Assembly: GCA_030248215.1 (NCBI GenBank)
Contig: JASANG010002537.1
Location: 310,001-374,000 of the forward strand
DNA: 64,000 nt
Direction: 5' to 3'
Origin: Enoplolaimus lenunculus
Taxonomy: Eukaryota
In this document: in pieces, positions 5,294-57,247 of the stretch
How positions within the stretch are numbered: the first letter of the stretch is position 1
Layout of the letters: every line of letters begins with the position of its first letter
Notes under the pieces: model-generated
Told to the model about the DNA's origin: nothing
Seen by the model: the letters and a program-made list of their open reading frames with translations, nothing else
The model's database searches: none
Position numbers and translations under genes: made by a program

Positions 5294-8200
5294 ATGTTTC
5301 GATCAGCTGCAACGAAAGCAACTTCTGCAATATTGTCTGCAAACAGTACAACGTGTTCGCAATTGACTGCTGCTGCTCGGCAACAAAGCTCGCAGCATGC
5401 AATTAAGTAAAGTGATTTGTCAACATACTGCTTAGTTTGAGTGCTTTTTTAATTAAAAGCGCTTCCGCCGAAATTAAAAAAAAAACTTAATTTGAGTTCG
5501 CAATATCAGCTAAACATTTCGCACAACAAAGTACTTCGAATTCTAGTAACTAATAGTGCTCAAGACTCCGTTATATCTTTTATCGCTCGTGCTTTTCAAA
5601 TTCAAACAACGATCTTAATCTAAACAGGAGGTTTTAAAGTCATGCGTTTGAATGGTTGTTCGAACAGTCTGGGATCAAATTGTAAAGTTGAAAACATTCC
5701 GAAACGATTTTGCTTGTTGAAATGCTACTCAACCTGCCTCGACGCGCTGATCACTTGTAGGAGCGTATACAACGGGAGGGATAGAGGTTACATATATATT
5801 AACCTTTATCACTCTCCTTGTATACGCTCCTGTAAGTGCGTATATATTTATATTTTAATATTATATCAGTGACGTGTCCAGAAGGTTGGGGTCCAATGAG
5901 TAAGGTCCCGTCCCTGCTCATAAGACCGAAATTAAAATGAAACTTAGTACACTATAGTAAATGCAGTATTTAGTATACCCTAAGAGATCAACAAATTCAT
6001 GTTGCAAATAATATTCCACACTGAAATCGTACTCTCTAAAAACTTAAACTTAAATTATAGCTTACGCAAGCTTGAATATTAGTTCAAGTAAAACTTTTAA
6101 ATGACTGACTGCGCGGACTAACTAAACTATAATTGTAACTTTAATTTTAGACTAACATATTTTAAGTGTAACACGAGTTTAAATTAAATTTTGTTTTAAT
6201 TTAAGTAACAAGTGCAACCGTATCTCAGATTATCCACAGGTCGCAAACTGTGTTCATATCGAAAACCAACTTTCTGAACGACAAATTTCAGATAAGTCTT
6301 GTTGTGTATGAAATGGTTCCGTTCTCAAAACTTATCCAATCATTCAAATTTCAGATACGTCGAACCAATATCCGAACTTTATCGGCACGATCACGACGAT
6401 CGATGTGGGACATCATCCACTCGGGCGGACGCTCAACCTCGACTGATCAACTTTAATCGGTTAACCGGTGACCATGTCGAATCTGTCCTGTCATTGTATC
6501 TTGGCCCTTATCTTGATATTGAACCGTTGAATCGTGCAGTTGGATTGACTCGGCGAGAAGCGCAAACGTCGTATCGAGAAATGTTAGATAACGCCGCACG
6601 CGATGGCAACAGTTTTGTTGCGGTCGACGAAGATCGTGAGAAAGTTGTTGGTGCGATTATTAACGAGAAACAACTGGTAAGTTTGCGTCGCACGGTACGA
6701 ACAATATAATCAAGTTCTGGAAATTGCATCAAACCAAACAGATAATCACTGTGGCAGAATTTAGAATTGCACTTTGTTCGGAAGGTATACACTCCTAAAA
6801 TGAAATCTTAGCCACACCTCGAATTAAGGACTGAAAATTAAGGGTAATTAAAATTAAGGGTAATTAAAATGAAGGGTAATTAGAATTAAGGGTAATTAAA
6901 ATTAAGGGTAATTAAAATTAAGGGTAATTAAAATTAAGGGTAATTAAAATGATTAAGCGTAATTAAAATAAAGGGTAATTAAAATAAAGGCTAATTAAAA
7001 TAAAGGGTAATTAAAATTAATGCTTAGGCTTACGAATACGCTTAATCTACTGTTACGCCCTTTGAAGTAACATTGGACAACCAATTAATAATATAATGTG
7101 TCGCTCGCTATGCAACACATTGAGCAACAACTTGAGCACCAAGCAAAAGCTTAATAACAAACCAAATTCTATTGTTTTGTTGAAAATTGTTTTAATTAAC
7201 AATTTTGTTCGTTTTTGCAGCGTGGCCGCTATCTTTACACAAGTCGTACCAGTGATAAGCTTGCACGAATACATGCGTTTTTGCGATTTGTCGAAGGTGA
7301 CGCGTTTGCACAGTTGCCACACGCTCAAATGATACTCAAGATACAATCTGCAGTTGTACGACAGGGATACCAAAATCATGGTATGTCAGTCGTGTATGCA
7401 AATGAGATTTGATTAAAATGCTCGTAGTTATTTTGTAAGTTTGAAAATGATACTATTCGACAACAGCTTGCAGTTGTAGGTAAATTACAGGTCAAAGTTT
7501 TAGTGCTAGCTGTAGCACTTATCGTTACATAATACTAGCAAGCTTGCTTGCTGAGAAAGGTACGCTATGTGTGGCGTGAATGAAAAATTTCGCAATGCCG
7601 CAAGTTTACTTTGTCTGAAGCAAGTGTATGGTGTACAGAACTACGTAAGCTTTGATTTTCACGTTCGACGTTCGCAAAACTTTAACCCTTTCACTCATAG
7701 AGTATACTATAAGCAACTAAATACAATAATGTACGAGAAATACACATACTGTGAGCAGTGTTTAACGTTTATAACATATGCGCAGATCGTGAGAGCCCTC
7801 TCGGGCTCGAGCGTCAAGCTCCTATAGCTCAGTGGTCATCGTAAACGCCTCCCTACCATGAGACTGGGGATCGAATCTTACCTTCAAATTACATTTCATA
7901 TGAAATTGAAAATATTCATGTGAGAAAGGGTTGAGACAACAAGTGATGGATGCTGCACACATCTGAGAATATTGAACGGTGTTAAATCAATGAATATTGA
8001 TTGAAATATTTCTGCAATTTTATGGTCGTTTGTAGTATTTAAGTTGACTTGAAATTCATAGCTACCTAGCAGCTATTGTGTGTTTTATTTTTGTTTCAGG
8101 AATTGGTAACATGTTAATGCAGATGTCAGTTGATCGAGCGATACAAGAACAGTGCGATTACATCACAGGCATCGCAACATCACCTCTCATTCAGAATATG

Positions 8201-9191
8201 CTGTATTTCAAGCTTGGGTTTCGGCCAGTTTGGTAAAAAACTTTAATATTTAACACTTGTGTAGAATTGTGTTGATATTACCATTGAAATTTAGACATTA
8301 GTGTTGCCCATAATGATACGGTGTTGTATATATTTCGTGTCAAATTCAATTTCAAGCTAGCGTTCTAAACCAACAGGTGTTCAACTGGACGGCATTTACC
8401 AATCTCATACAGCTATGTAAGGTGGCTGGTTGAAGCCGATGGGTCTCTTACTCCCTATAGATGGAAGTTTGTATTACACATACGTAACAGTAATTGTAAA
8501 ACAGTGTACATTGTTTTTTATCGTACAGTTTGCAGTTAGGTGCTTATAGTATACTCGATGCGACGAGGGTAACAGTTATGGCACTCTTTTCTGGTAAGTG
8601 CTCGCCAGTCGGCGTTTGCCCAAAAATGGTTGAATTTTGAAAAAAATTCATATTTGTTAGCTTCAGACATTAGCAAAGGTATGAGAAGCTGAAATACGAA
8701 AAATTTGTAAAATCCGGCCATTTCTGGGCAAACGCCGGCCTGGCGGGCACGTAACAGAAAAGAGCCTATTTTTTACTAAATTACAATTACATAAAGCATG
8801 CATCCTTTATTGATCCGTGATCAGGAAACAAAATGCAGTCCCGCAGCCCGCTCACCGAGCTGCGGAGCTAAAAGATTTTCACCAGGGGCATACAAGGGTT
8901 TTCGTTGACGTACAAGCAAGGTTGAAGATTTTCTAGAGGGAGCAAACTTTTTCCAACGGTGCTGAACCTTTCCTGGCCGTCTTCTGGCTAAGAATCCGAA
9001 TAGATAACGGTACCAACAGTGTTGTCTGTTGTACATTACATTTGTGTTAAAAAATTGTGTACAGGTCATGCAGTACAATGACATATGCCGAAGAAGACAC
9101 ACAAGAAATGCCGTTCCAGTGTATTGCACATTCGTCACCATCCGTAGTATTTATGGCACGCAATCTTGTTGAACAGCCTGAACAGTACTAA
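5294..9191 (+). CDS. GNAT-family N-acetyltransferase, AANAT/dopamine N-acetyltransferase-like (about 284 aa, 5 coding exons)
   Basis: Exons 5294-5406, 6355-6676, 7221-7380, 8100-8232 and 9065-9191 are all GT-AG with consistent phases (855 nt). The protein has 'YLDIEPLNRAVGL', 'SFVAVDEDREKVVGAIIN', acetyl-CoA motif A across a splice 'VVRQGYQNH|GIGNMLM', 'IATS...LYFKLGFRPVW' and C-terminal 'MPFQCIAHSSPSVVFMARNL'. The first exon is uncertain; alternatives are 4344/4394-4446 or ATG 6308. Confidence 0.82.
6031..6225 (+). mobile_element. AT-rich MITE (family B), partial
   Basis: Near-identical to the first about 190 bp of the 16561-16901 copy (ACTCTCTAAAAACTTAA.CTTAAATTATAGCTTA...GTAACAAGTGCA.CCGT). 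Confidence 0.75.
6834..7020. repeat. 16-bp minisatellite (AAAATTAAGGGTAATT)n, about 11 copies
   Basis: Directly visible tandem array in a GNAT intron. Confidence 0.95.
7686..7930 (+). mobile_element. piggyBac-type MITE with internal tRNA-like module (family E)
   Basis: TTAA-CCCTTTCACTCAT...ATGTGAGAAAGGG-TTGA ends; internal A-box TAGCTCAGTGG (7825-7835) and B-box-like GGATCGAATC (7868-7877). Confidence 0.75.
8580..8766. mobile_element. Foldback MITE with about 60-bp TIRs
   Basis: CTCTTTTCTGGTAAGTGCTCGCCAGTCGGCGTTTGCCCAAAAATGG is mirrored by CCATTTCTGGGCAAACGCCGGCCTGGCGGGCACGTAACAGAAAAGAG. Confidence 0.8.
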
Positions 9192-10754: not shown

Positions 10755-10995
10755 CCTTTTAATTAGAGACATACTTTTATGCTAGGATTCGAACTCCAGT
10801 GACTGGAGTGGGAGACGTATACCATCACCACTCAGCTATAGCAGCTTGACGCTCGAGCCCGAGGCGGCTGTCACGTCTTGTGGTGATTTAGTACTATGTA
10901 TACTTGTTGCAATTGTTAAACACGGTGCGATATATATTATTTAACGTATATACACTGCGCTTAGTTGCCTATAGGCAACTCAATGTGAGAAGGGG
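10755..10995 (-). mobile_element. piggyBac-type MITE with tRNA-like module (family E), reverse copy
   Basis: Right end ATGTGAGAAGGGG-TTAA. The minus strand carries TAGCTGAGTGG and a canonical GTTCGAATCC, and shares CGGGCTCGAGCGTCAAGCT with 7686-7930. Confidence 0.75.
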
Positions 10996-11637
10996 TTAAG
11001 CCTTGCAAAAGAGCCATATTCATTGTCTCCAGAAATTTCCGGAGGGGCATATTTTTCTATGCGCTCCAGCGTTCGATACAGACTTTCAAAAAAGCAGCAT
11101 ACTTTTCGAAATCGAAGCAGGTGTATGAATGCTGAGCTGGTTTTCTTAACTGTAAATGACACCTAGTTTCCATTGGGTTAAATACGGTCCAATCTCCCAA
11201 GTCCCTGAGAACATCGAACTTGGCTGGGTGGTCGGTATTCTCGCTTGAGACGACGTCATCAAGCATAAAAAGCTTTTTTATTCAAATTAAACAATAAAAA
11301 CTTTAAAATATACGTCATCGTTTTAATTTTTCGCATGAAAACGTCAACGAAGCATTTCTGAGCAACTCAGCCAGTAACAGCACATTTACAAAATTGATGA
11401 TTTTAAGAACACTTTTAGAACGCCTTCATCAATTAAAAAAACTGCTATGTCAAGCATTAGTTTGCGTTTAAGTTTAGATTTAGTATAGAAACTGTAAAGC
11501 CAAGCTAATGTGCTATCAGTTCAGCAATTGCCAGCGTTTTAAAACAAAAAAGTTTTCAAAATGACACATTTAATTGTTTGACTTCATATTACGTAGGTTC
11601 ATAGAGGTCCGTCCCTAATTTAAACAACTTCGTAGGA

Positions 11638-12009
11638 TTAGCGTTTATTCCATGCTTTTACTGGCGCTGGACGCTTCCCCCAATTTTTAACTGGGGCTGG
11701 CCGTTTTGCCCAATTCTGGACCGGAGCCGGCCGTTTGTTCCACGCTTTCACAGGTGCAGGCCGCTTGTTCCAACTTTTCACTGGTGCCGGCCGTTTGATA
11801 AACGGTAAAATTGGATCACTGAACCAAGATTTAACTGGCGCTGGCCGCTTGTTTCCGGCGTCGGTGAAAATATCATTAATACGAGAATCGCGTTTGCTCC
11901 ATGATTTGACAGGTGCTGGCCGTTTGCGAACGTCAAAATCGTAGCCGTTGAAGCATTCTGACAAAACGAAACAGCAAACAGTGATCAAAAGTACTGTTTG
12001 TAAGCTCAT
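11638..12009 (-). CDS. Neuropeptide precursor with 7 PAPV(K/Q)xW peptides
   Basis: 123-aa ORF with a hydrophobic signal peptide (MSLQTVLLITVCCFVLSEC) followed by seven KR-flanked copies: PAPVKSWS, PAPVKSWFSDPILPFI, PAPVKSWN, PAPVKAWN, PAPVQNWA, PAPVKNWG, PAPVKAWN. TTTCAG acceptor at 12077-12072 upstream; AATAAA at 11282-11277 downstream. Confidence 0.92.
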   Translation of the reverse strand: MSLQTVLLITVCCFVLSECFNGYDFDVRKRPAPVKSWSKRDSRINDIFTDAGNKRPAPVKSWFSDPILPFIKRPAPVKSWNKRPAPVKAWNKRPAPVQNWAKRPAPVKNWGKRPAPVKAWNKR

Positions 12010-12654
12010 ATTCTGTTATGCTTTGATGTCGGCTGATGTTATATATTCGTACTGGCTAAGATATTAACGATCTGAAATGAAATTTTTGATAAAGTTAGGT
12101 TTTGTAAGCAGTGTTCAACCGGAGACGAAAAAACTGAACCGGGAACGAAAGGACTGCCGATTTTTCCGGAGTCCGAACAGGAGGTGAAACAAATTTAGGT
12201 AACGAAAATAAATGTTAAATTTGCTAATTTTATCTATAATCTGCAAAGATTTGTCACAATAAATTGTTTTTGTTGTTTTTTATTTGAGAAATCTTTTGTA
12301 TATTAAAACTTTAAAAGTAGCCTCGAAGTTACAAGAAACTTATTGAAGGGCACCAATTTCACTGAACTGTGTAAGATCCGAGGACAATAAGATTTACCGG
12401 AACCAGGTAGTTTGAACTTTGCGTTTTCTTTTTTCTTCGGCGAACATTTGACATCAAAAAATTGTGTAAACAAACAACATAAAATACCGCAATTTAATTA
12501 TGCTAGCAATTCCCGTTCAGCAACTGTCGTTTATTTTGAATCCATAAAATCCACATTCAACTCATTGATCACGCAAACAATGGTGGGCCGATCAGAATAA
12601 ATAGATACGCTGTACCAGTGTTGTATGCTGACTTTCAACCTATCAAAGTTTTTA

Positions 12655-12828
12655 GCCAATGTAAAAAAACAGGGCCGTAACAGTAGTAAGAGCATATTCC
12701 TAAACCTAAGCGTACGCAAAAGCCTATACCTGAGCCTAAGCCTAAACCAACAATTAGTCTAAAGCTTAATCTTCCTCTATTGCAGTCCTGCTCAAAAACG
12801 GTCCGCCCCCCAAATCTTTACATGGGCC
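12655..12828 (+). mobile_element. MITE with internal degenerate telomeric (GCCTAA)n (family D)
   Basis: Ends GCCAATGTA / TACATGGGCC; core CAGGGCCGTAACAGTAGTAAGAGCATATTCCTAAACCTAAG...GCCTAAGCCTAAACC. Further partial copies at about 10230-10370, 17580-17703, 26355-26498, 62820-62880 and 63710-63820. Confidence 0.8.
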
Positions 12829-25478: not shown

Positions 25479-25757
25479 CCCTTTTCCACGTGATGAATAA
25501 TTTTTCATGTCAAATCTGATTTCAAGCTAGGAATCGAAACGTCAGGTTCTCATTAGGATGTACTTACCATCACCACTCAACTCACCTATAGGAAATTTAT
25601 GCTTGACGCTTGAGCCCGATGGGACTATCACGTCTTGTAGAGATTTTGTATTGTGCATACTTTTGCTAATCGTTAAAATACGTTGTATCGTACTTACATT
25701 GGTTGCACACGTACACAGTTTGGTATTCGGTAGTTGCTCATAGTATCCTTAATGTGA
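25479..25757 (-). mobile_element. Family E piggyBac-type MITE, degenerate
   Basis: CCCTTTTCCACGTG left end; GCTAGGAATCGAAAC...CCATCACCACTCA...GCTTGACGCTTGAGCCCGA shared with 10755-10995. Confidence 0.65.
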
Positions 25758-28562: not shown

Positions 28563-31248
28563 TCAACCTGTTGATGATTATATATTTATAAAGTTTTATC
28601 GATTTAAAGCTCAAAAACAGAATATGAAATGAAATTTTGAGGCCGGATTCATGAAAATAATTTTATTTACCACACGTCTCCAAAAATTGATTTTATTCAA
28701 AATATTGTGACAGGATCCTTAAATTTCACATTGTTAAGAGTTAAATTGGTCTCATTGTATTTGACTCTTGTTATGTCAAATAAGAAACCGTGCCATTAAG
28801 GCCATAAACATGTGACAAAACCTTATAAGTGGTTTATAGGTAATAGGGCAACACTGAATAGCAACATGAAAAAAATTATAATTAAGCATGCATATATTTT
28901 TATTAGAAACACAATCTAAACTATTGTTACCCCCGACTAGTGTCATGCCGATGCCTCACTTTTGCCAAAACATACCTCCAAATATAAAATCAATGATTTA
29001 TAATGCTCGCGTAAAAACGTTTACAACAGCTTTACGATTAACAAGCGGCCTCTGAAAGGTGCAGGGAGTCGATGTTGGTATCGAAATATATACACGTATC
29101 TGGCTAGTTTAACAAAAATTTTAGGTAGTGCAGATCTAAATATCGCTCCTGTTCAAAAAATGTTATTTTAACCGAAAGCGGAGATGGAAGAAGTACACTA
29201 TAGGTCAGCATCCTGATCAGGATTTTCCTGGATTACACGTTTATGCAGTTCTTTTCTCGATGCACGCTATCCGCTCTGATTACGTAACGCGGCCGATAAA
29301 TGTTTATTAACCCTCCCAAATCTTTTACAACACCAAGTATTACAAGCAAATCACAGGTTATGCAATTTTACTTGTAGCCTGATCCGAAATCCTTAAGGCC
29401 TATGCCTGAATCCGTTTTAATCCAGCCACTGGCTTCATCGATACCAATACTTTTACTATTTCCCAGAGTCTGTGCAATCCTAACCCCGTTAGAATTACAC
29501 TCTACTTTTCCCAAGTTTATAACCGTGCACTCTAACCCCTTTAGAGATACACGCAATTTTACGACCAATCTAACCCCGTTAGATTTGGCCCAATCCGTTG
29601 TAGAATATTAAACCTAACCCCGTTAGATTCACTAGACTACGTTCCCCAGGTTTCCTTTAAATCTCCGGTCTTCCCCAATTAGCACATAACGCCAGTATGC
29701 GATACTGGGTAAATCCTGCGCCCTGCGCAACATAAGTGAACACAATACGCCCTTGTTTCCTTCACATTCTATTCCACCGTGACTATTCTTAACTTAAGTT
29801 CACTTCCAATCTTACTTACCGCAACTCCTTAGATACTTCACACGTCCAGAAATCCCAAATAAGAAAGCCGTAATTCGCACACGAAATTCAACAGAAAACT
29901 AAGCCACCGATTTCCACTAGCCAAAATTTCAAACTGATTCCGGTCCCGGCTACCCCTTGTGCGTCTCGACCTAATTTGCATACAGACTGATACCCACAAC
30001 TGGGTGTCCGCCGATGCTATTTTAGGTCCAGAGCCACCCATCCTGTACACCAATTACCTACAACAACAACAATACAATATACAACAACCAATCATGTCGG
30101 ACACTCACGACATGCTGACTTAGGCTAGCGATGTCGTTAACCGATCGAAACCCTTGCAACAAAATGCTTTCTTGAGGAAACAGAAATATGGAGGAGCTAT
30201 ATATTCTCGCACAAAAAACGGAAAACAGGACAGCAATATTTTTTGAGACTGATTTTATCCGTGGGAATGACCCTATGCAGGATTGGGGGCTGCCGCCCCC
30301 AAGCCCCCCGTACTAAGCGATCTTGCTAACTAACTCACAAATAACAACAACAAAGTATAATAATGTTCGTGTATGCGCAAACAGGAGTAGCAAATGCTGC
30401 TCTTCGGCAATATTGCTGTCCCGCGGGATAACGGGGCGCCCCTGAAAGTTATACGGGCCAATTTTCGGATGAAATCCTAAGACAAATTGCGACGAAGCCA
30501 TAAAGAAATGTGTGATTATTTTTAACTGCATGATTTCCTGCAGACAATAAACTGTTTGATTCATTGATCATGATAGCCAATCGGCAAAAATCCTAGTTTT
30601 ACCCGTGATAGGTGTAATGTGCATTATTCAGCGTTACATTTTTGAATGGTTTGTTTTCAAAATTATACTAATAAATGTTTCTTAGTATGTAAAATCGAGG
30701 GACTGACATTTTACACTGTGAAATTATACAATTGTATTGAACACAGAAGAAAAAATAAGGGCGGGTAAACGCGGGTAGTGGATAAATGAAACTTTGCACG
30801 GTATACTTGCAAGTAAAAAAAATCCGCGAGAAACGGGCAGCGCGAAAGAGAAATATTCTCTCACTTACGCCTCTTAGCTGCATATGAATTACTTACATAG
30901 ATTTCAGTCCCCCAATATTTATTGAACTTGAGGCTCATGTTTTGGTGCTGATGTAGAGGCTAAATAACGGATAAACACATAGCTAGTTTTAGTACTTAAA
31001 CATGGATTTTTTGGTTCTGCTGCTATTAAAAATTAAGAATATCTTGTTGCGGATTCCAAAAAGTCGATATAGATAACATTGTATGGTTGTTCTATGATTG
31101 TACTTTATGTTGTTACACATTTAGAAATATTTGTTGCAAATCTGATTGTCTGCTGTTAAGATCAAGTAACATATTGCTCAATGTTTTGTTAGTTTTTGAG
31201 TACTGTCAGAACTGCACGGTCGGGACGACCCCTTTCTCCGAAAGATAT

Positions 31249-31320
31249 GGCCACGCCGGGAATTGAACTTCGAATCTTTCGCTCGTTAGTCAAGCGCGCT
31301 ACCCATTACACCACGCGGCC
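31249..31320 (-). pseudogene. tRNA-Arg-like pseudogene / tRNA-derived module
   Basis: Minus strand GGCCGCGTGGTGTAATGGGTAGCGCGCTTGACTAACGAGCGAAAGATTCGAAGTTCAATTCCCGGCGTGGCC: 72 nt, with an intact acceptor stem and A/B-box-like motifs, resembling eukaryotic tRNA-Arg. The anticodon and T stems do not pair. Confidence 0.7.
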
Positions 31321-31653: not shown

Positions 31654-34600
31654 ATGGGCGAAACTCAAGAAGAGGTTTGTGCCGATCTTATAATTTTGAA
31701 CATGTATTCTATCAAAGAAAAGTTTTAACAAAAATACGATAAAACTAAGGACTCTAAATACTTTGTTGTATCTATATTAGGGAACGACCGGTTTTTTATT
31801 CAGCCGGATGCTGAAGTGGAGACGGATAGTTAGTATTTACCGAAACGTTACTTTAAGTATATATGTTTAATGATTTAAAACGAGTTGCTCATAGCTTGAA
31901 TTTTCATTTCACATCAGTGTTAAAAATTAATCGAAGCTCGCCAACTTGAGATTTTGCGCGGAATGAGTACTTTTAGCCTTAAAGATTTTATTTTTTGCAT
32001 GTCAAACACACTTTCTCTTTATTTTTTAGTCAGATGTAATACATAGATAAACGGGTAAACTGTGTTTAGTTTACATATATAAGAGCGATCATACACGGTT
32101 AAATGGGATTTTCTTTTCAAAACAGTACTTTTGTTTGTAAAAATTACATCTCACCCACACACAAGATGTTCCATCCGATTGTCAACATGGGCGCTTCCCC
32201 CGGTCCTGCACTTTGCTATGATTTTAACTGGAGCAAAGTTTTCTTTTTTTCAAATCGGTCCGATTGTGCAGACCACATAAGAGATTTTCTTCGCCGAAGT
32301 TTACCCTCGACATATCAAGTAAAAACGTAAACTTGTTTGCGCATTAAGGCAAAAACCGCCAGATGTTGTGAAAAACATAAAATTCCGCCTGCATTATTTC
32401 ACTGTATAACAGCACCATATTCGTATTACGTATATCGTAGCTCATATTGATAGTTGTCTTGTCTTTACGTGTTCTAACTTGGCCCCGGTTTGCCCCGGCC
32501 CCATGGCAACTTAACCTAAAATACTACAAGCTCCTCTTGAACGCGTTATCCCTCTGAAAAAGTATCATTAAGACTAGGCTTGTGAAATATTAGCCTAGCA
32601 GAAATGTTTGATGACGTCTCTAAAGGTGTACGTATATTTCACTTATTTAGTACCTGGAACGTTTGTGCAAAGATTTGTATGAGGCAACAGACCATCAAGA
32701 CCGGGCGCTTGCTGAAAAAACGCTGCTTGAATTCTCCGAGTCTTCTGATTGTGTTCGCAAATGCATGGTACTTTTAGAAAGAGGCAAGGTAGGCAATGGG
32801 ATAGGGTAATCAGCGTCTATACCTTTTTGATTAATCAATACGTAATGGTTATTCACTGGGTTCATTTGGTGTTTCTTCGATATTGTCACGTTTTGCCCGC
32901 TTTAGTTTTTAAAAATCATTCATGTTTGCTTGAAAACAAATCTTTCGTTGCCTTTCAATTACTTAGTGTTAGTATATATCTGCAGAAAAAGAAATATAGT
33001 AAAAGATATCGCTGCAAAGTTGTAATTGAAAGTAATGAAACTTTTCGTCAACTTGTTTTCGAAACCGTAATTTAGCTAGCTAGCATTGTAGATTTTTTGT
33101 TTTCCCACCATTTTCAGTCTTCTTACGCGCAGTTAGTTGCTGCAACAACGTTATTGAAAGCTGTGTCTCGATCGACTCCCGTAGTATCGCTATCATACCG
33201 AATCGAATTGAGTAAGTTTTGTGTAAAATTGCATAAACGATGTTACTTTATTTTGTCATACTTTTGTTTGAGCAACTTTTTCAACTGTGCTTTGAAACAT
33301 TCGTACTAATTGTGATCAGATGTGTTTATATTAAAGCCCAAATCTTTTCAGTATTTGTACGCAAAGCAACAGCAAATTTGATATAATAAATGTTTGCACT
33401 AACACAGTTTTCTCAACGCGAAAACTGAAAAACTGAAATTATATGCTTAAATGTTATATTGCTGTGTTGAAGATATTTGACTAAGTTATGCGAGTGCGAG
33501 GTTTTGTTAACACTTTTCTCTTATATTTGCTAATTTCAGAAAGTTACCTGTTGAACTACATGGTCAACCGTCCAAAAATGCCAAATTACGTGCTTTCATC
33601 GCTTTGTCAGGTATATTTGAAAATTCTTTGTCATGCTTAGTTTATGATACGTATTATATTATATTGAACAGGTTTTTCTTTGTAGCCGCTTTATGATGTT
33701 ACCTAAAACGAAATTGATTTGTGTAATACCTAATGGGAACGAACTAACGGAATCATTATTGTTGACAATGTTTTTGACTTAAAAAGCAAATCTTTGTTTT
33801 GTATAACGATAGCGGTTATCTAATATCTGAATGAACACATTTACGCATACAATCTAAACAAACATTTTCACGTTTTTCGATTTTTCAGCTATTTGCACGG
33901 TTAATTAAGTTGGGCTGGTTTGATTTTACAAAAGAGGATGAGTATATGTTCCGATCCTGCATCGACGAAATTTTCCAAGTAGCTCAGGTACGCACCTTAT
34001 GTTATATAATAGCGACATTGTTTTCCGTTTCATATGTTTTATATTGTTTCAATTCAAGCTTGAATTCAAACCCAATCTCTTCGGTGGCAGGAATTTACGA
34101 TTACCAATCAACTATATACGCTTGATGCTCCTAACGATGGCGCTTTTACGTCTTCTGAAAATACTGTACTGTACTGTAGACGGGCAATATTTGTGATACA
34201 GTACAGATTCTTTACTATTCGCGCACATAGTTTGCAATTTAGTGCCCATAGTATAGTCTGTGTGGCAGGATTAATCAGATGTGTGTAGATTGGATGATAT
34301 TGTCTCAGTCCAATATGCGAGCGGATATTCGGCTCCGGTATAACATCCGGCTAAAAACCGATATCCGTGTTCGGTGCTTGTATCCGGTTTATACCTACCG
34401 TATATTGAATAGTTAAGGTTGTGGTCCCGAATAACTCAGAAACCGTTTTTACATTTGGATGTATTTAATATGTTGCGGCGTTTGTATTTCCATAAAATTT
34501 TGCAACAGATAACAAATTTATATGCTTCATCCGGTTCCGATATTTGGTAATTTGGTATTTGGTCGTACGCTGCACTCATATGCATGTCAAAGGGCGTAGC

Positions 34601-37600
34601 CAGGTGGTCACGAGGGCAGAGCGCCTCTTGGTTTTTGTCAATTGGTTTTAGGAACTTTTTCAGTAGACAACTCAAGAAGCCTCTTTGAAAATTTTATGGA
34701 ATGTAACTCCCGTTGCAAAATGTACTTACTAAGTGTGCTTGACCACAGGTTTATCAGTTCGGTTTATATTTGACAGCGGTTTTAACTTTAATTATTAGCT
34801 TCTGATATACTGTGGGGACAACATGGGTCTGTTCTTGCGTTAAACAGGGGGTGAATAGTTTGAGATGATAACTGTGTATGTAAAATCAAGAAATAGGCAT
34901 AAGTAAACTAAACAACCAATTGTGCGACATTTGATAGGTTCGGGTTCGTATTTTCTTGTTTACGTGGATCAAAGTTTTTTTCGATATTAAAAAGTAGGTT
35001 TCGTTTTTTCCAGGGTTCTCTCGATTTGTGCACTATAGCTGTTCAGTTGTTTGGTCATATTGTTACTGAAATTAATCAAGTAAGTGGAAATGTTGGCTGA
35101 GAGACAAATTGCACCGGTTCTGCCCAAATATATATTCAAATGGAAAACAAAGTAGGATATACGTTCTATGTTCTTTCAAATACTATCAATATACCCTTGA
35201 GTATTGGTTTATTGTTTCACTTTCTGTGTGGGTTGCTCGTATGTCGGATATTCTTGAGAAAAATTCAAATCAGACTGTGTAGTTAGTAGGTAACCTGAAT
35301 TTTTATACATAACTTAACATTTGTTTGCATTCAGGGTGCAATTGGAATTTCGGTTCCGGTATTGAAATCTTTAAATTTCCTTACACTGTTCCGGCATTCA
35401 ATTTTGTTGCATGTTTCAGAGTGCGGGTATTTCCTCGATCAGTAAACATCGTAAAACGGCGGCATCGTTTCGTGATCTCTATTTGTTCGACATTTTCAAA
35501 CTGTCAATTCGACTCCTGCAAGAAGCATTAGACAATATTAAAAATGTTGATTTGTCAGATGAAAATCAGGTTTGTTTTAAGTATGAGATATACGGCTTAG
35601 AGTCAAAGCTGTCCGCATTTAGTTTTGATCTGTATCTTTTTTTCTAGTATTATCAGGCATCCGTTTTATTTATGAATGACGATATCATTAGGGTCCTCAG
35701 TGGTGTACTACATAAAGTTAAAAATTCATTGGTACTTGCATTATGCAGTCATTAGTGGAACAGTAGCATGATCTGTCTTGCCTGTTTCAATTTGGTAACT
35801 AAACTTATTCAAATAGTCTAGCCACCGTGCTATATGACGTGCCAGTTGCATTTCAATAATGATTTGTTGTAGCAAAGCATTATTGGTCAACTATTATCGC
35901 TAGCATTAAGCTGCCTGTCGTTTGACTTTATTGGATCGGTATGCGATGACTCCGCGGACGAAAGCCTCTCTGTTCAGGTGCCCACTGCTTGGCGAGTTGG
36001 TAAGTATTATTGGCGGCGTCTGACATTTTTTAGCAGGTTAAGCAATGAATTAGAGTTTTGTGACATTTTCAATCGATGTATGTATCGATGGTTTTGAAGA
36101 TTATTCAATATTACGTTCATATACTGAATTATAGAGTTGCGTTAAAATTGTAGCTGAATGATGTTGTATGAGGTATGGTACGCTGAAACTGATTTCTTTA
36201 CTTTAGTGAATTTTATATAAATAAAATCAAACTATACTGCACTGTACTTATTGTTTTTCAGCATTTTTGGATGCAACTATACTCAAGATGTTTTATTCCC
36301 TGTTTCGAGCTCTACCTCCGGTTTTAGCTACTGTGGTAAGTTCAAACTTTCAGGAGGCTTTCATATGTTGGACGATCTAGATAAGTTGAAGGAAATATAT
36401 AGTTTTTCATTATATAGATTTTAAGATAAACTGTTCTTAATCCGTTATAAAGTTATAAATGTCCAAATTGCTAGCTCAGTTATACAAGCTATAATTTTTG
36501 AGAGTTTATTAGTGGTTTAAGGTTCAAATTTGTAAATATAACTAATTTTTGTAATAAGTTTGAATTGATGATGGCAGTGGTTTAATCTGAAGACGAGAAG
36601 TAAGTAGAATTCAATGGCAAGATCGTTTTATGGAGTGCACTTCAGGCGCTATCGTGCTTAGTTCAGTTGGCTTCTATTCGTCGAACAATTTTCAATAACA
36701 ACGAACGTCAAGATTACTTAAACGCGCTGGTACTGGGAGTCAAAGATGTTTTGGAAAATACTCAGGTGTGTTTAGCTTAGATTATTTTCCGACTCGCAGC
36801 AACATGTTATCATTTAGAACTGTGTTGCTTTTGACACACTGAAACCTGTTTTTGAACTTTAATATGTACAACTAGATTAACTGTGATTGGTAATAGTTTT
36901 TTGCTTTTTTGCCAATTTTAAGTTTAAATTAGGAAAGTGTTTATCTTGCGCTACATGCGAAAATAACAGCAAACAATTCCGCTATAGGTTCTCAGCGAAC
37001 AAAACGTGTATCACGAGTTTTGCCGACTGATCGCTCGTTTGAAAAGTAACTATCAACTCGCTGAATTGATCAAAGTGCCAGATTATCCTAAAATCATTCG
37101 CATGATTGCGGAATTCACTGTCAGCAGTCTTGGAGTAAGTCTTGATAAGATTGCTATTGTATGTATATTTGCGTACGTTAATGTTTCAAAATTTAGAGAA
37201 ATTGAGCAAGCTCGACCTAGTTTTGTTGGCAAAATAATACAACTCGGATTGTTCGCCGGTTACTGTGAGATGTTTGGCTTATAGTTCAGTTTGATCCAGA
37301 ATATATAGATCGGGTACTTTGCTAAAATTAACGCCAATGTAAAGAAACGGAATAGGTTTGTGCTGGAATGATTATGATTTAGTTGGCAGTCGAGAGTCAA
37401 GAAAGTTTAACAATTATTGTTGAAGAGACTACCTGACGGGTCTAACCACTTCGAGGTCTCTGTCAATGATATATACCTGCCTATTTTTCCTGGGGATGAC
37501 AGCAACATCAGTGTCATAAGGTTTTAAAGCATTCTCTGACTGATGAATCCATAAACGGTGAACTACTTTTATACGGCACGTGATATTTGTATCAATTTCC

Positions 37601-40600
37601 TTGTTTTGCGATTTCGCAGATGTATCAGTTTTCGGCGAACTCAATTCATTATTTGCTTGCGTTTTGGCAGCGGCTTGTTTCCAGTATGCCGTATATTCGA
37701 AATGATGAAAACCATCTGTTACACAGTTACGCACCGCAAGTGACCAAGGCTTACGTAGAATCACGCTTGAATGTTGTTGCAGCTGTGTCTAGGTATTTTT
37801 AAGTATTTGTTATGAATCGCAAAGAACGATTTAGATTAAACGTTCAGTTCTTTACCATCATCTTTAAGTAATTCTGTTTCGTATGATATAAATGCAAATT
37901 TTTTACCTCATTTATTGTTGGCATTGCACTAGTGAGGATTTGGGCCTGGGCCAAATTTCCTCACTCGAAAAATTTTCATGTTCAGCACCCACTTGAACGA
38001 ATCTCATGGTTTAAAATTATGTATACTTATAAAATATGTAAACTTATAACATCGGAACGATTACAAAATGGGTTAGCGTCACCTCTGAACTTCAAAATAT
38101 GAAATTTATGCGAAAAAATTTAAAAATACAAAAATTTGCTAAAAATATCAAGAATTTGCGAAAACTTACAGATTGTAACATTTTAATTGTTTATTTCATA
38201 CAATATTGAAGTCAAGTCATCCGCCATCCTCTAAGCTTTAGGAAAATTTAGGACCCTTTAAAAACGTTTTTGTCCGATTGTGAATTATGCTAGTTCCGGT
38301 TCCCTTCGCATGTAGACTTGCGTCATTGATTGTCGAGTGCACCTGAACTGGTTACCGGCAGATGTTTTAGCGTTTTCCTAACTTTGACATTGCGTTTCTG
38401 GCATCGTTCGTATTTCAGGGATGGAATAGAAGATCCTTTGGATGATCACAGTTCGCTTGCTCAGCAGTTAGAACAAGTAGAATGAATCTATTCTATAATT
38501 TTAAATATATTTTGAGAACGTATATAAGTTTTTCAACTCATATTTGTTAATGTAATGTCATTTTGGGAATAGACAGTTAGCAGTGCTTTGAACAAACACC
38601 AGTTTATCGTGATATCGCGTTTTTATATCAAATTATTCTCTTGATTTCAATTAGCTGGTTGTGTGTTTGTAAGATTGTTCTTGATTTTAAGTTTGAATTT
38701 TGAAATTTTAATGTAAAAAGATGTCTATCTGTCATGGAATTGCGCTATATTGTTTATAATGATTGGTGCCGTCTATGACTATTGGAACTGGTCCAGAACA
38801 ATCAAGTGCAAGATTATCCTAATTACGGTTTTCAGCTATCTGTCATATGTCGTTGTGATTACGAGTCGTTTTGTCAATTAATTGCCCAACTGTTTGATGA
38901 AATGGCATCGCGTTATCAGTCTAGTGTGACGGGAGCTGGTGTTACAGCCAACAGTCAAACAAGTCACCAGCCGCAAAGTAGCACCGCTGAAACAAACGGA
39001 CCCACAGCGACGCCGAGCATTGCCGATCAGGAAGGCTGTTTGGCGTGGCTGGTATTCATTTCAGGTGCAGCCATTGGCGGCCGAGTCTCGTTCAGTAGTT
39101 GTGAAGACGAAGACGAAACCGACGGGTATTTGATTTGTCGGTAAGTGCAAAACCCATTTGTTATTCTGCAAGAAAGCATTTAGACAATAATTAAAGCAAC
39201 ATATAGCTTGGCTCTGTTTATGAGACGGATGATGGTTAACTTTTAATTATTTTGTTTCAGAGTTTTACAACTGATGCAATACACTGATTCTCGGTTGCCA
39301 GCACACGGAGTTGAAAAATTGGAACTAGGATATCTTTGGTTTTTAGAGCAGTTTCGAAAGATTTACATCAGCGATCAGATAACCAGGATATTAAATGTAC
39401 ATGCTATGTTTTTGTTTTGTCCAGTGTATTATCCTTGTAACATGTAATACTAACCGAAAAGTTTGTTTATTTATATCATTCACTTAGCAATGTTAAAACT
39501 AGTATGCTCACCCAGTTTCTGTTGTAAATAGGTACCACAGCATCAAAACCTGGATAAGCGCAACAATAAGTGCTATTAATTTTCATATTTCACTGAGGTA
39601 TGTATACAATATCATAGGTTGTTCGAACAAAAATTTGCAATGTTGGCTGTTTCAGGTATACAAGAAGCTGGGTGAAATTCTTGGTCTTAAAGATGAATCT
39701 ATGGTTCTAGCTGTGTTTGCTCGAAAAATGTTAGATTTTATAAAAATGACTTTTACTTTTTGATTCGTTTTTATCGGAACAGAATAGTTATACTTGTTAT
39801 TTTATTAGACGTTGATGTCAGTGAAAACTACGTTTCCTGATGTTTACACTGTACAAAACAATTTAACAAAATCGTTTAGTTCTTTGAATTACTATGTAAA
39901 AAGGTTCAATAATTTGTTAGCTTTGCTGCGTTACGATTTATTAAATAGGACTACTTTGAATGTTTTAGCATCACCAATTTGAAATATTGGAGCTGTCAAG
40001 AGCGAATAATCGATGAAACACTTGCTTTATTGAATGATCTTTCGATCGGATATGCGTCAGTAAAGAAACTAGTCAGACTTGAAGAAATACAATTCCTTTT
40101 TAATAATCATACGGTGAGGAGATAAATGAGTCAGCCATATATAACACGAGTTTCTGTTAGTACGAAAGTCATTGAGATTATAGTTTGGCATAAAGAGTTG
40201 AGGAAGTGAAAATTTTCAGACTAATGGACTAGAGGTTGTATCTGAACACCTTGACGTGTCTAGTGTTGCAAGCTATACTTAAAAACTTGTACTTTTTGCA
40301 GTGTGAATTGAGATAATGAGTGATTTTAGGGCAAGATAATTTGTGGTTACATAATTTCATAATTTGATATTTTTTACCGTATAGCTATTTTTTAGTTATC
40401 CATAATAAACATTTAGACGTAAAATAAGCACGGATTGCAGTGTGTGATACCGTGTGTATTCCGAGTTATTTTATATCATTTCAGAGCGATCATTTTGAAT
40501 TGTTGGGAACAAATGCAAACGTCAAAATGATGAAGAGTCGTAGTAAATTTTACACCGCATTAACTCGATTATTAGCGTTAGAGTTACAGTTAGAAGACGA

Positions 40601-43600
40601 CGAACAATTCCAGCGATATATGATGCCAATTACAGGTATTACAGGTCGTTGTAGCAAGGCTTTGAATCAGGCTTAACTTTATCTGCAGATTTGATATTCA
40701 TATATAGTTAATTTGAATGTTTGTTGATTTTAATTAAGGTTTGTTCAATTTGATCAGTTGGTAACACGATTTGGTCTAATTAATTGCACCAAACCTATGG
40801 GACTAATATTTTGCTTTTGTAGACAAAAATAGTGTGAGATATTTCTCCACCATCTCTGATTTTTTGCACTTGGTCACTGACTCTTATTAAAATATCAATT
40901 TTTCGCTTGTAATCGATACTCAATTGTTAAGTTTTCTTAAACAAAATCATTGCAGTATGAACGCGACGAATTTGTAGTTTTTCAGCTTCTTTGGATCAAT
41001 TACGGAAGCTGTTTGCATCTATGCCTGACAGTTCATTAATTGCTCAAATTGAGGCCAAGGTACGCGATTAGTTTGTTCAGAATTTTGTAAAAAATTTATG
41101 CTGTAAGTATAGTGCAAAACAGACAGCTGCTGAATGAATGTGAGAATTGGCTAACTTTTTGTTCGCTGTCACTTCAAAAAGGGGCTAGTTGTATCTTTCT
41201 AAAGGCAATGTTTTTTCGGCTAACCATAGTGAAAATATTATAAACCATTTTAGTTTGCTTGCTGTGGAACAGCTGAGTTTCGTCTTTTTCGGTTGTAAAG
41301 GCATTAAGGCGACGTTTCTCAATGAACTGTGTGTAATTTTTAGAGAATGACACGTTTTTAACTGAAGTTGATCTCAGGACGTTTTTAGAGTTATTCTTTT
41401 AATGCTATGTGCTTCTTGCTAAAGAATTGAAGCAGTATTGTTTATTTTTAGAAAGCGATAATTGGCCTGGCTCGTGATATTCATGGCATAGCATTTGCAA
41501 GCAACTCAAAGTCAGCATATTATATGCTGTTCAATTGGCTGTGAGTCTAATTTTATTACTGTTTTCTTATTTGTTTATATTTACAAATGAATGGTTATAC
41601 TGTTGTATTCATGCATATTGGTTCTACGAAACATAATGCGTGTGTAACACGGTACGGGGTTACACTTGAACTAACCATAACGCCCGCTGTAAAGGTGCTC
41701 GAACTATCAACCCTTAGACGCCGCTTTCTTGTACAAGGAGCAGGCGAAAGCAAATTTCAAGGGAAACACCAGAAATCGCCGCTCACTTACTGGGTGCTGG
41801 CGAAGGAAAATAACACAACGAACATACTAAATATGCTGCCACTTTTAACACGAAAAAACCAATGCGATAACCTATAGTTGCGTTTATTAAGAGAATAAAA
41901 ACACCCGAATAGCGAAACTTAGACCTTACAACTCAATTCACCGCATTTTTTTACAAGAAAATGCATATATCGCATGCTTTGAAAAAGATTATAATTGTCA
42001 GCCACGATTCAAAACAAGTTGATATTGCATAATAAACTAAAATTATTCTCTGAAACGTTATGTTTTTAGAACAATATTTTGACAGACTGAATATCTGTTA
42101 AACGAAATTCTTGCGCTAAACAAACTGAACGAAATTCTTGTGCTATGGCAGAATAAAAATGCAGGATTTATAAAAAGAATATAAATTGCGGGGACCATCA
42201 GCAATTGCAGCATGAATGCATACGTTTGTGTGTAATTGTATGATGTTTGTGTGCGATTGTATGTATATGTAATCATGTTTGTTTTGTTTGTTTGTTTATT
42301 TGTTTGCTTGCTTACACATGTACGTACTCTCAGAGACGACTTTTTAGCTATTTCATATGAGATTGTTGCGTAAAATATCACAGAGTTGCGCATGGCTCAA
42401 ATCAGATTTTTTATTTTAAGGTACCCCGACTATTTCAATATCTTCCACAAAGCAATAGAGGTAAGTTGCTTTATTGCATTATAAACAGACTCACTTATTC
42501 ATACAGGTTCTTCTTTTCATAAACTGTGTTTGTGGTGTTAGAAATCGTTATTTTATTAAAGCTGGAGCTAAACGTAACAGAATTCACAATCATTTGTAAT
42601 TTGACTCATCTAAAACAAGGGTTTTGCTCACACAGCTTTGTCCCCCAACATTTATTGAAGTAGAAGCTAGATGGAACGGAACATACAATCAACCCAAAGT
42701 GTAATTTGCGTCAATTAAAACTAGGTGTTCAAATCTTTTACAATTTCAGAATATACTATTAAATTTATAAAAAAATTTCTTTTAAGCTATGGTATGCTGA
42801 TCCTGACCTCACAACGCCAATATTGAAATTAATGGCTGAACTGTGCCATAATCGCAGTCAACGCCTTAATTTTGACGTAACATCGCCGAATTCATACCTG
42901 TTGTTTAAAGAAGCATCGAAATTTATTTGTTCATATGGTAAGTTCAGCTTGCTTTAGTGGAGACTTAGTCTGGCGTTATTTGTGCGGCGCCGTCCACAAG
43001 TCAAAAAATGTTTAAAAAAATTTTATGCGGTAACATGCGGCATTTTACGTGCATTTCCTGCTATATGGTGCCGCGCAGCACCAGACGCCAATGAAATGTT
43101 CAAAAAGTAATGTGCTACCTTTAAGTCTATGTTGTAATGCTAGAGGGCATTAAGCTATACAAATGGATTGCCATTTTAGATGGATTCTCAATAACTGGTT
43201 TTTGTTCTACTAAATGTTTTTGGAACATTGGATTTTAAGTTCTTATTTTTTAATTCTTAACCTAAAGCCGAAAAATCGCAATTAATTTATAATCCTGTGC
43301 TAAGATAGTATCGCAAATGCTATATATAGAGTACGAGTTGCTTACGAGTTGCTTACGTTTTTGTAAGTTTAGAAGTATAAATGTGTTTATTTAATGCTTT
43401 ATTAAGTTGTTTGTTTAGGCACTCGTATGCTTGCCATTGCTGACATTCCAAAAGACCAAATGTATAGAATGCGACTCAAGGGTGTAACAGTATGCTTCGG
43501 TATGCTCAAAGCGTGCCTCTGTGGTGCATATGTCAACTTTGGCGTATTTCGGTTGTATGGTGATTCCTGTCTAGACGACTCAATTAATATGTTTATTCAA

Positions 43601-55500: not shown

Positions 55501-57247
55501 AAACTTTCTTATGTCGCCTGGTCGCGAAAAAGAGTAAAGATCCGAAAATAAACGGTGAAAAAATCGGAACCAAACTCACCAAGTATCCGCGGATCTCTTT
55601 GTATTACAACGGTGTTTCGTCTTGTTCCATCAGGAAGTATTTCTGAATTACATCGATCCAATGGAATGGTGATATTAAAAAATGAACTTGGCAACAGCCT
55701 TCCATCAACATAACGACAATTGGCATCGTTGAATGTACCGTCGGTATAAATTAAACCAGTAAAAGTTCGTTCAAATGTTAAACTCAACACAATCGCCGGC
55801 TGTGATTGGTCAGTTTCAGCGTGAGTGCAAACTGCTGATTTGCTGAGTACACGATTTGTTGAACGCTGTGATGTAATTTCACTGGCTGCAGCGGTGAGAC
55901 GCTTTTGAACTATAGTGTCTTGTTGAAATCGTGACGGATACAAGTAGCTTTGTGCAAAAAGTTGCTGTGTGACGCTGAACATCAGTGAAGCAATCAGTGC
56001 TGATATCTATAATACATTATTTGCTAAGATTTCATAATATAGGCGCACAGAATTTTAAGGCCAAATTTTAGCAACGTTTGGCATAATAGCGTTTTAACTA
56101 ACGAAATATATATAAATACCAGTCGTAGTGTGATTACATTTATTGAGCGAAGCTCGAACACACGTAAGCAATTAAGGTAATATGCAAATTAGTTATTAGC
56201 TAACTATTCATATATCGGTTTTGGAGGTTTGTAAGCAATTTCCTCAGATTCCTCGCACGCAAAAACCTTTCAGCCACCGTAATAATTATTGGAATAATTC
56301 AAAAAGTCCTAATTTTGTCTCGTCAATTAAGCAAATATGCAAATTACCTATTAGCTAACTATTCGATAATCGCCTTTAAAGGTTTGTAGACAATTTATTC
56401 AGATTCCTTGCACCCGAAAACCCTTTATTGCTGAAATTATATTGCTTTTAACCTTAATAATTATTGAAATAATTTAACAAGTACTAATTTTGCCTGATCA
56501 ATTAAGCTAATAAGCAAATTAGCTATTAGCTAACTATTCAATTATCGGTTTTGGAGGTTTGTAAACAATTTATTCAAATTTCTCGCACTTAAAAACCCTT
56601 TAGTGCTGAAATTATATTGTTTTTAACCTTAATAATTAGTGAAATATTGTAAAAAGTCCTAATTTAGGCTTCAGATTCCTCGCACCGAAAAACCCTTTAG
56701 TGCTAAAATTAGATGGCTTCTAACTGTACTAATTAGTGAAATATTGTGGAAAGTCCTAATTTAGGCTTAATTAATTAGGCAAATTAGCCTATAGCTAATA
56801 AACGGCTTAAAATTTTCAAACCCCAATGCGAGGTTAACACTCCAGGATAATTGGCTTTCAAACAAAAAAAGTTTATCAAAATCGGTTCAGCTGTTCCTGA
56901 TTCGAAGTCCTAACCTTTGGGTAATTTTAGATAGCCTAGTTTAAAGCAAGCTCGTAGTCTGCCAAACAAATTAGAGGGGTCCAACGCAGATGTGTTACAT
57001 AATTTACAATCAGTGAAAGATGTTTCCAAAGTGTGTAGCTCAGTTTCCCGGTTCGAACTTGGTGAAGGCTTTTTAAACGATCGTTTGACATATGTATTTA
57101 CATATTGTTTTTTTGCGTAAGTTTATTTCTTGGCGTCCTGCCGTATAATTCTGGCCCATGCTGAATTGAGAAATTAATTTTCTGTACTTTTTAGGTTTAT
57201 ATACTAATATTTGATACTAGCAAACTTACTCGCATGGCAAGAATCAT
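52582..57247 (-). CDS. ZP-domain (cuticlin-like) single-pass membrane protein (about 592 aa, 5 coding exons)
   Basis: Exons 57247-57230 (MILAMR), 56006-55580, 55070-54945, 54623-54402 and 53567-52582 have consistent phases (1779 nt). Features: signal peptide; ZP-N (FTGLIYTDGTFNDANC, NTVVIQRDPRIL..GDNKYVLTC); ZP-C (AGRCWATD..LSDDRGCS, KTWAFPTSSHVNILCNVHIC); basic site LRRRD; TM helix FAALLAFVVLFCMTSIVCVAIMIV; cytoplasmic tail. Confidence 0.9.
56119..56900 (-). mobile_element. Helitron/DINE-like element, 5'-truncated, in the first coding intron of the ZP gene
   Basis: Reverse complement of about 48695-49198 with the same 3' end and more copies of the internal repeat. Confidence 0.7.

What the first reader, a model, noticed from the sequence alone, without database searches (positions are those of the whole stretch)
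11638..12009. Unrecognised multi-copy neuropeptide precursor: the PAPVxxW peptides
Seen: a signal peptide plus seven dibasic-flanked peptides with invariant P-A-P-V and Trp. Only one copy (PAPVKNW-G-KR) can be amidated; the others end WN, WS or WA, and one is extended. Synonymous codons vary between copies while the amino acids are conserved, which suggests selection at the protein level. Known: this is the classic prohormone-convertase precursor layout. Inference: I cannot match the motif to a named nematode nlp or flp family. It has only loose resemblance to APGWamide or to kinin-type xWS/xWG endings and lacks the kinin Phe, so it may be an undescribed peptide family with an unknown GPCR.
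Basis: partly seen in the sequence, partly recalled or inferred. Interest (0 to 1): 0.88.

Follow-up and report, generated by a model that had tools for sequence, protein, structure and literature searches.

The report
Undescribed multi-copy PAPVxxW peptide precursor
A 123-residue reading frame in an animal genome, probably a nematode, holds seven conserved copies of a short PAPVxxW peptide between Lys-Arg pairs behind a predicted signal peptide; it is likely a neuropeptide precursor of a family that we found in no database or paper searched.

Summary
Window 12009→11638 (minus strand) encodes 123 aa: a hydrophobic N-terminus, then seven KR-flanked PAPVxxW copies. Between copies, silent sites are near saturation (pS 0.70) while replacement sites barely change (pN 0.09). 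Seven of nine columns are invariant; a neutral simulation never exceeded five in 200,000 runs. The DNA is single-copy and spanned by single contigs. A TTTCAG acceptor lies 62 nt before the ATG. The host is an intron-rich, long-branch animal with nematode-type splice sites; the phylum is inferred, not shown. No homologue appeared among 1.84 billion protein representatives or in metagenome and viral scans, and the motif is in none of the papers or nematode neuropeptide supplements searched. It fails the defining motifs of leucokinin, Wamide, APGWamide and nlp-97. It does share nlp-97's spacing (Ser/Ala-Trp at positions 6–7 after KR) and mostly unamidated, variable tails, so a remote link is possible. 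Best reading: an ordinary prohormone layout with a new peptide motif, likely cut by a PC2-type convertase into short peptides for an unknown GPCR. Expression, processing, tissue and receptor are untested. Lineage-restricted neuropeptides are common, so interest is moderate.

The parts
11638..12009 (-). Uninterrupted ORF, 123 aa, predicted peptide precursor
   Evidence: GC 0.48 against about 0.37 for the window
11953..12009 (-). Predicted signal peptide, residues 1-19 (cleavage after 17 or 19)
   Evidence: hydropathy and (-3,-1) rule only; coordinates
11926..11952 (-). N-terminal propeptide, residues 20-28, ending at an RKR site
11896..11919 (-). Copy 1, PAPVKSWS
11851..11889 (-). Acidic spacer peptide, 13 aa, between KR sites
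11797..11844 (-). Copy 2, extended to 16 aa (PAPVKSWF...)
11767..11790 (-). Copy 3, PAPVKSWN
11737..11760 (-). Copy 4, PAPVKAWN
11707..11730 (-). Copy 5, PAPVQNWA
11677..11700 (-). Copy 6, PAPVKNWG, the only copy that can be amidated (predicted PAPVKNW-amide)
11647..11670 (-). Copy 7, PAPVKAWN, followed by KR and stop
12010..12077 (-). TTTCAG splice acceptor ending at 12072 and a 62-nt leader without ATG (end of a 5' UTR intron or a trans-splice site; inferred)
11277..11574 (-). Candidate polyadenylation signals: ATTAAA at 11574 and 11327, AATAAA at 11282
   Evidence: consensus matches only

Best explanation
This is a protein-coding frame under purifying selection with seven KR-flanked PAPVxxW repeats, and it is likely a secreted neuropeptide precursor of an undescribed family in what is probably a nematode. 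Shown: the frame, the repeats, the codon-level constraint, single-copy DNA, the upstream acceptor. Inferred: the transcript is spliced at 12072; the signal peptide routes the precursor into secretory vesicles; a PC2-type convertase cuts after each KR and a carboxypeptidase trims the basic pair (enzyme roles from general knowledge); copy 6 is amidated. The products would be five octapeptides (four distinct), one amidated heptapeptide and one 16-mer. Because residues 1-4 and Trp7 are fixed while residue 8 and the amide are free, a receptor, most likely a class A GPCR, would read the N-terminal PAPV and the Trp, as in nematode families with N-terminal conservation.
For: Layout and cleavage sites. 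pS 0.70 against pN 0.09; the two other same-strand frames and two of three opposite frames have 0 of 8 invariant columns. One contig each in runs X1 and X2 spans the ORF with 1 and 0 differences at flank-level depth (these runs may be the window's source). The Atlas feature search ranks neuropeptide and hormone precursors first (0.82-0.84, below its 0.9 bar, a lead only). Unamidated multi-copy nematode peptides were detected by mass spectrometry, including nlp-9, -14, -21 and the NPYSW precursor with mixed amidation (PMC8153747 section 8). KR-Pro sites have a precedent: P0055 carries KR-PMSMLRLG repeats and PMSMLRLamide was found in single snail neurons (PMC8172996 passage). No homologue.
Against: No transcript or peptide evidence. 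Every copy starts with Pro right after KR, which convertases often disfavour (recalled; PMC9070308 passages did not address it); only 1 of the peptides in the Haemonchus NLP table starts with Pro. The signal peptide has no basic n-region and was not run through SignalP. With no orthologue, conservation is seen only between copies of one gene. No nematode exportin-7 was among the 120 listed hits, so the phylum was not placed by a tree. The literature search misses most subscription papers.
Confidence: 0.65

Rival explanations
1. It is a strongly diverged relative of a known nematode precursor, most likely nlp-97 (NPYSW) or less likely the kinin-like nlp-43, and acts on that family's receptor.
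For: nlp-97 peptides also put Ser/Ala-Trp at positions 6-7 after KR, have free tails and are mostly unamidated with one amidated copy; Steinernema copies begin KR-Pro and filarial copies begin K-PAP (PMC8764417 supplement 1; PMC8153747). Non-insect kinins end W-[S/A/G] (PMC7913504 passage), as copies 1, 5 and 6 do.
Against: 0 of 7 copies has the NPY of nlp-97; 0 of 7 has the Phe three residues before Trp; 0 of 7 has W-x-Gly for a kinin-type amide, and Phe, Trp and amide are reported as crucial for kinin activity. The word search and phmmer returned no such precursor. The resemblance is by eye, two or three residues, and was not scored.
Confidence: 0.17
2. It is a processed secreted peptide precursor but not a neuronal one: a gland, pheromone, defence or host-directed product released outside the body.
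For: No orthologue in any collection searched fits a fast-evolving, lineage-specific product. The layout alone does not show the tissue. The host's way of life is unknown.
Against: Copies are under strong purifying selection and not diversifying. The peptides are 8-mers with one basic residue, unlike typical antimicrobial peptides (general knowledge). An acidic spacer and one amidation site are typical of neuroendocrine precursors.
Confidence: 0.12
3. The KR-Pro sites are not cut, and the product is a small secreted repeat protein with a structural or binding role.
For: Pro follows every KR that precedes a copy; five copies form a perfect 10-residue tandem array.
Against: KR also closes the last copy just before the stop, and flanks two unrelated spacers. 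KR-Pro sites are processed in myomodulin precursors.
Confidence: 0.04
4. It is non-coding repeat DNA, an assembly artefact, or the real gene is the mirror frame on the plus strand (11642-11944).
For: The plus-strand mirror frame is open for 100 codons with 5 of 8 invariant columns.
Against: The mirror frame has no Met and no hydrophobic start; its constancy follows from shared wobble positions. The neutral null is rejected and single contigs span the ORF.
Confidence: 0.02

Closest known systems
Nematode nlp-97 (NPYSW precursors; PMC8764417, PMC8153747)
   Same: Signal peptide, several dibasic-flanked copies, Ser/Ala-Trp at positions 6-7, variable tail, mostly unamidated with an occasional amidated copy.
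   Different: Core is PAPVK, not xxNPY; tails are one residue in six of seven copies; no sequence-search hit.
Leucokinins and nematode nlp-43 (FX1X2WX3amide; PMC7913504, PMC11004728)
   Same: Multi-copy short peptides with Ser/Ala before Trp and a small residue after it.
   Different: Val-Lys replaces Phe-X; no copy can form W-x-amide.
Wamide superfamily (MIP/AstB, nlp-38, nlp-42; PMC7270403)
   Same: Repetitive precursor with an invariant Trp; copy 6 would end in Trp-amide.
   Different: Six of seven copies cannot be amidated and carry residues after Trp; there is no second Trp.
Molluscan APGWamide
   Same: Ala-Pro near the start and a Trp.
   Different: Three residues lie between Pro and Trp, there is no Gly-Trp, and most copies are unamidated.
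Nematode nlp-9 and nlp-21 (N-terminally conserved, unamidated peptides)
   Same: Conservation lies at the N-terminus and the C-terminus is free (PMC8764417 section 3.4; PMC8153747 table).
   Different: No sequence similarity.

Membership tests
Convertase-processed peptide precursor (NLP-type) | N-terminal signal peptide | tested here: inconclusive
   Hydrophobic core 6-16 (mean 3.24) and two (-3,-1) sites; no basic n-region; no SignalP
Convertase-processed peptide precursor (NLP-type) | Similar short peptides flanked by dibasic sites | tested here: met
   7 of 7 copies have KR on both sides
Convertase-processed peptide precursor (NLP-type) | Peptides constrained at the protein level | tested here: met
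   pS 0.70, pN 0.09; null maximum 5 of 9 invariant against 7 observed
Convertase-processed peptide precursor (NLP-type) | Neuronal expression and detected mature peptides | not testable with these tools
   No RNA holder listed; no peptidomics tool
Leucokinin / nlp-43 | Phe three residues before Trp (FX1X2W) | tested here: not met
   Val in 7 of 7 copies; definition from PMC7913504 passages
Leucokinin / nlp-43 | C-terminal W-X3-amide (W-x-G-KR in the precursor) | tested here: not met
   0 of 7 copies
nlp-97 | NPYSW motif | tested here: not met
   0 of 7; only Ser/Ala-Trp and its spacing are shared
nlp-97 | Orthology by synteny or intermediate sequences | not testable with these tools
   No whole genome held; no related animal genomes searchable
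Wamide (MIP/AstB) | Amidated C-terminal Trp in the repeated peptides | tested here: not met
   1 of 7 copies; definition from PMC7270403 passages
Wamide (MIP/AstB) | Two conserved Trp residues per peptide | tested here: not met
   One Trp in 7 of 7 copies
APGWamide | Gly-Trp-amide end | tested here: not met
   0 of 7 copies has Gly before Trp; motif taken from the family name
Any of the above | Activation of the family's receptor | not testable with these tools
   No receptor in hand

The most novel reading that the evidence does not exclude
This is the founding member of a new neuropeptide family with an N-terminal PAPV-plus-Trp recognition motif and its own GPCR, kept in a poorly sampled (probably early-branching) nematode lineage and absent from C. 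elegans and the catalogued parasites, so that current nlp catalogues miss part of the phylum's signalling repertoire.
Probability: 0.5. Interest if true: 0.62.

Novelty: new member of a known kind. Interest (0 to 1): 0.47.

Why it matters
Nematode neuropeptide catalogues were built outward from C. elegans and a few parasites, so families absent there stay invisible. This is a clean candidate with exact predicted peptides and masses: it can be searched in unannotated genomes, tested by peptidomics and added to GPCR deorphanisation libraries. If orthologues grade into nlp-97 or kinins, it would help root those orphan families (the C. elegans kinin receptor TKR-3 has no identified ligand; PMC11004728 passage). 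It does not point to a new mechanism.

Tried and rejected
Homologue searches. Exact look-up: not in the collection, though the Atlas holds the sequence letter for letter, perhaps from the same genome. Word search of 67-216 aa proteins: 4 candidates, 0 at E<=10; longer and shorter lengths were not searched there. phmmer on 1.84 billion representatives: 62 hits at E<=0.001, 0 of 62 with dibasic-PxPxxxW, 2 of 62 with PAPVxxW but no dibasic flanks; the rest are 10-residue periodicity matches, three of which look like precursors of other families. Pfam: 3 matches, all under cut-off. PDB: 0. Metagenome scan: 115 pattern matches, 0 confirmed. Viral scan: 36 matches, 0 confirmed. Earlier findings: none.

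Expression: no RNA holder listed. A second laying on 11560-12110 to look for paralogues returned nothing in all three runs, even those that hold the DNA, so it is a filter miss and says nothing. Run X3, a second sample, shows 14 differences over 11180-11585 and 1 over 11585-11712; too few to test.

Phylum: exportin-7 searches listed no nematode (3 hits; best 120 of 1124, biased by the aphid and leech scaffolds). The tree of 35 sequences joins the window's gene to the long leech branch, which I read as long-branch attraction; the first tree run did not finish. The Atlas search with the ZP-C exon gave chordate- and nematode-rich clusters and does not place the host.

Literature: the one PAPVK hit was the abbreviation CapaPVK; three five-letter hits were unrelated by title and were not read. 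One wanted paper on global neuropeptide clustering was not held. Structure and complex prediction were not run: the precursor is short and low-confidence in the Atlas model (pLDDT 0.48) and no receptor is known.

Full report
1. The observation. The minus strand from 12009 to 11638 translates without a break into 123 residues: a hydrophobic N-terminus, a nine-residue propeptide, and seven copies of PAPV-x-x-W, each with Lys-Arg on both sides. The repeat finder gives seven copies with spacings 30, 30, 30, 30, 54 and 75 bases. The copies end WS, WF (extended to 16 residues), WN, WN, WA, WG and WN; only copy 6 has the Gly for amidation.

2. More than chance. Over the 27-base core, third codon positions vary in 8 of 9 columns (15 extra alleles), first positions in 2 of 9 and second in 1 of 9. 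Pooled over 21 copy pairs, which are not independent, pS is 0.70 and pN 0.09. Seven of nine residue columns are invariant; when the same numbers of base changes were scattered at random on the consensus, the maximum in 200,000 runs was five. Four of the five other frames keep 0 of 8 columns. The fifth is the mirror frame on the plus strand (5 of 8), which shares the wobble positions and has no Met. Of 25 Met-started frames of at least 80 residues in the window, this is the only one with both a hydrophobic start and three or more KR. One contig in each of runs X1 and X2 spans the frame with 1 and 0 differences at the depth of the unique flanks, so it is neither a collapsed repeat nor multi-copy; these runs may be the window's own source. 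No second copy lies in the window.

3. Gene anatomy. A TTTCAG acceptor ends at 12072, followed by 62 bases without ATG; candidate polyadenylation signals lie 63, 310 and 355 bases after the stop. The signal peptide rests on hydropathy (residues 6-16, mean 3.24) and two possible cleavage sites, after residue 17 or 19. It lacks a basic n-region and was not tested with SignalP. No RNA run was listed, so expression is open.

4. The host. The window holds an intron-rich exportin-7 gene (about 32.6-46.4 kb, plus strand) and a ZP/cuticlin-like gene (52.6-56.0 kb, minus strand; both Pfam matches below cut-off). Of 24 exportin-7 acceptors that I chose beside the aligned exon starts, 13 are TTTCAG and 22 have T at -5, against 23 of 694 AG dinucleotides in that region preceded by TTTC, the real acceptors included. 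That is the nematode pattern as I recall it. The exportin-7 is 54-59% identical to 33 of 34 compared proteins from arthropods, molluscs, annelids, a brachiopod, vertebrates and unnamed records (44% to the leech), while those 33 are 67% or more identical to the aphid and salmon references. It therefore belongs to a longer-branched lineage outside them. No nematode was in the comparison, so the phylum is an inference, about 75%.

5. Relatives. None was found. These collections hold few unannotated animal genomes, so this shows absence from annotated sets, not rarity in nature. The Atlas feature search ranks prothoracicostatic peptide, allatostatin, tachykinin, PBAN and FLP precursors first at 0.82-0.84, under its 0.9 bar: consistent with the class, no family call.

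6. Literature. Full-text searches for six- and seven-residue forms of the motif found 0 papers; five-residue forms found 3 unrelated listings; PAPVK with neuropeptide found 1 false hit (passage of PMC5885757). Supplement searches found no such peptide in PMC8764417 (8 files), PMC11462694 (9 files; five PAPV strings in a receptor, NLP-1 and NLP-55, none followed by xxW), PMC9881375 (6 files held, file 6 unreadable) and PMC7615250 (3 files); the NLP section of PMC8153747 was read whole. Alignments cut into 50-column blocks can hide a motif, bioRxiv supplements were closed, and most subscription papers are not held, so 'undescribed' means not found in these searches.

7. Comparison with known families. 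I read parts 2 and 3 of 6 of PMC8764417 and part 15 of its first supplement, and passages of PMC7913504, PMC7270403, PMC11004728, PMC8172996 and PMC9070308. Leucokinins need Phe, Trp and an amide (FX1X2WX3amide): here Val stands for Phe in 7 of 7 copies and no copy can form W-x-amide. Wamides need an amidated terminal Trp, and MIPs two Trp: met by 1 of 7 and 0 of 7. The nearest analogue is nlp-97: NPYSW copies with Ser/Ala-Trp at positions 6-7 after the dibasic site, free tails, two unamidated and one amidated peptide detected in Haemonchus, and some copies starting KR-Pro or K-PAP. Its defining NPY is absent here. So the gene works like an NLP-type precursor but is not shown to be a member of any named family.

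8. Mechanism. Shown: frame, repeats, constraint, acceptor. Inferred: secretion; cleavage after KR by a PC2-type convertase; trimming of the basic pair; amidation of copy 6; release of five octapeptides, one amidated heptapeptide and one 16-mer. The weak step is cleavage before Pro. A precedent exists: P0055 has KR-PMSMLRLG repeats and that peptide was detected in snail neurons; against it, only one peptide in the Haemonchus NLP table begins with Pro. Fixed residues 1-4 and 7 with a free residue 8 suggest a receptor that reads the N-terminus and the Trp, as with nlp-9 and nlp-21. A Pro-Ala-Pro start would also resist amino- and dipeptidyl-peptidases (general knowledge, untested). A GPCR is the most likely target by class; no receptor was identified.

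9. Verdict. A real, constrained gene with a classic prohormone layout and a motif not found in any source searched. Neuropeptide precursor of an undescribed family 0.65; diverged nlp-97 or kinin relative 0.17; non-neural secreted peptides 0.12; uncleaved repeat protein 0.04; artefact 0.02. New member of a known kind; interest 0.47.

Noticed in passing
window 32650-46400 (+): Exportin-7 (RanBP16) gene with at least 24 exons and mostly TTTCAG acceptors; 54-59% identical to other bilaterian orthologues.
   Followed up: yes
window 52582-56006 (-): ZP-domain, cuticlin-like membrane protein gene; ZP-C and CUT_N matches below Pfam cut-offs.
   Followed up: partly
window 6355-8500 (+): Exons that look by eye like a GNAT acetyltransferase of the arylalkylamine N-acetyltransferase type, pointing towards the peptide gene; Pfam gave no match and PDB only weak ones, so the label is unconfirmed.
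   Followed up: partly
window 10766-10999: Very high-copy dispersed repeat (summed contig depth about a million against 13-30 for unique DNA); two diverged copies at 7788-7891 and 25565-25677. Looks SINE-like by eye; no Rfam match.
   Followed up: partly
window 12668-12790: Second high-copy repeat, rich in GCCTAA-like units (the nematode telomere motif, recalled), with at least seven other matching places in the window.
   Followed up: partly
window 11642-11944 (+): A 100-codon open mirror frame with TGAGR repeats opposite the precursor; no Met, read as a by-product of the real frame.
   Followed up: yes
window 31248-31320 (-): Rfam tRNA match (34.5 bits) that ARAGORN did not call; tRNA, pseudogene or tRNA-derived repeat.
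   Followed up: no
window 11585, run X3: The second sample's contig carries about 42 extra bases at this point of the presumed 3' UTR and about 3.5% differences in the flank.
   Followed up: no
protein P0040: Unnamed 129-aa precursor with a signal peptide and six GVFRW-G-KR-type repeats, no Pfam match; a different Wamide-ending family.
   Followed up: no
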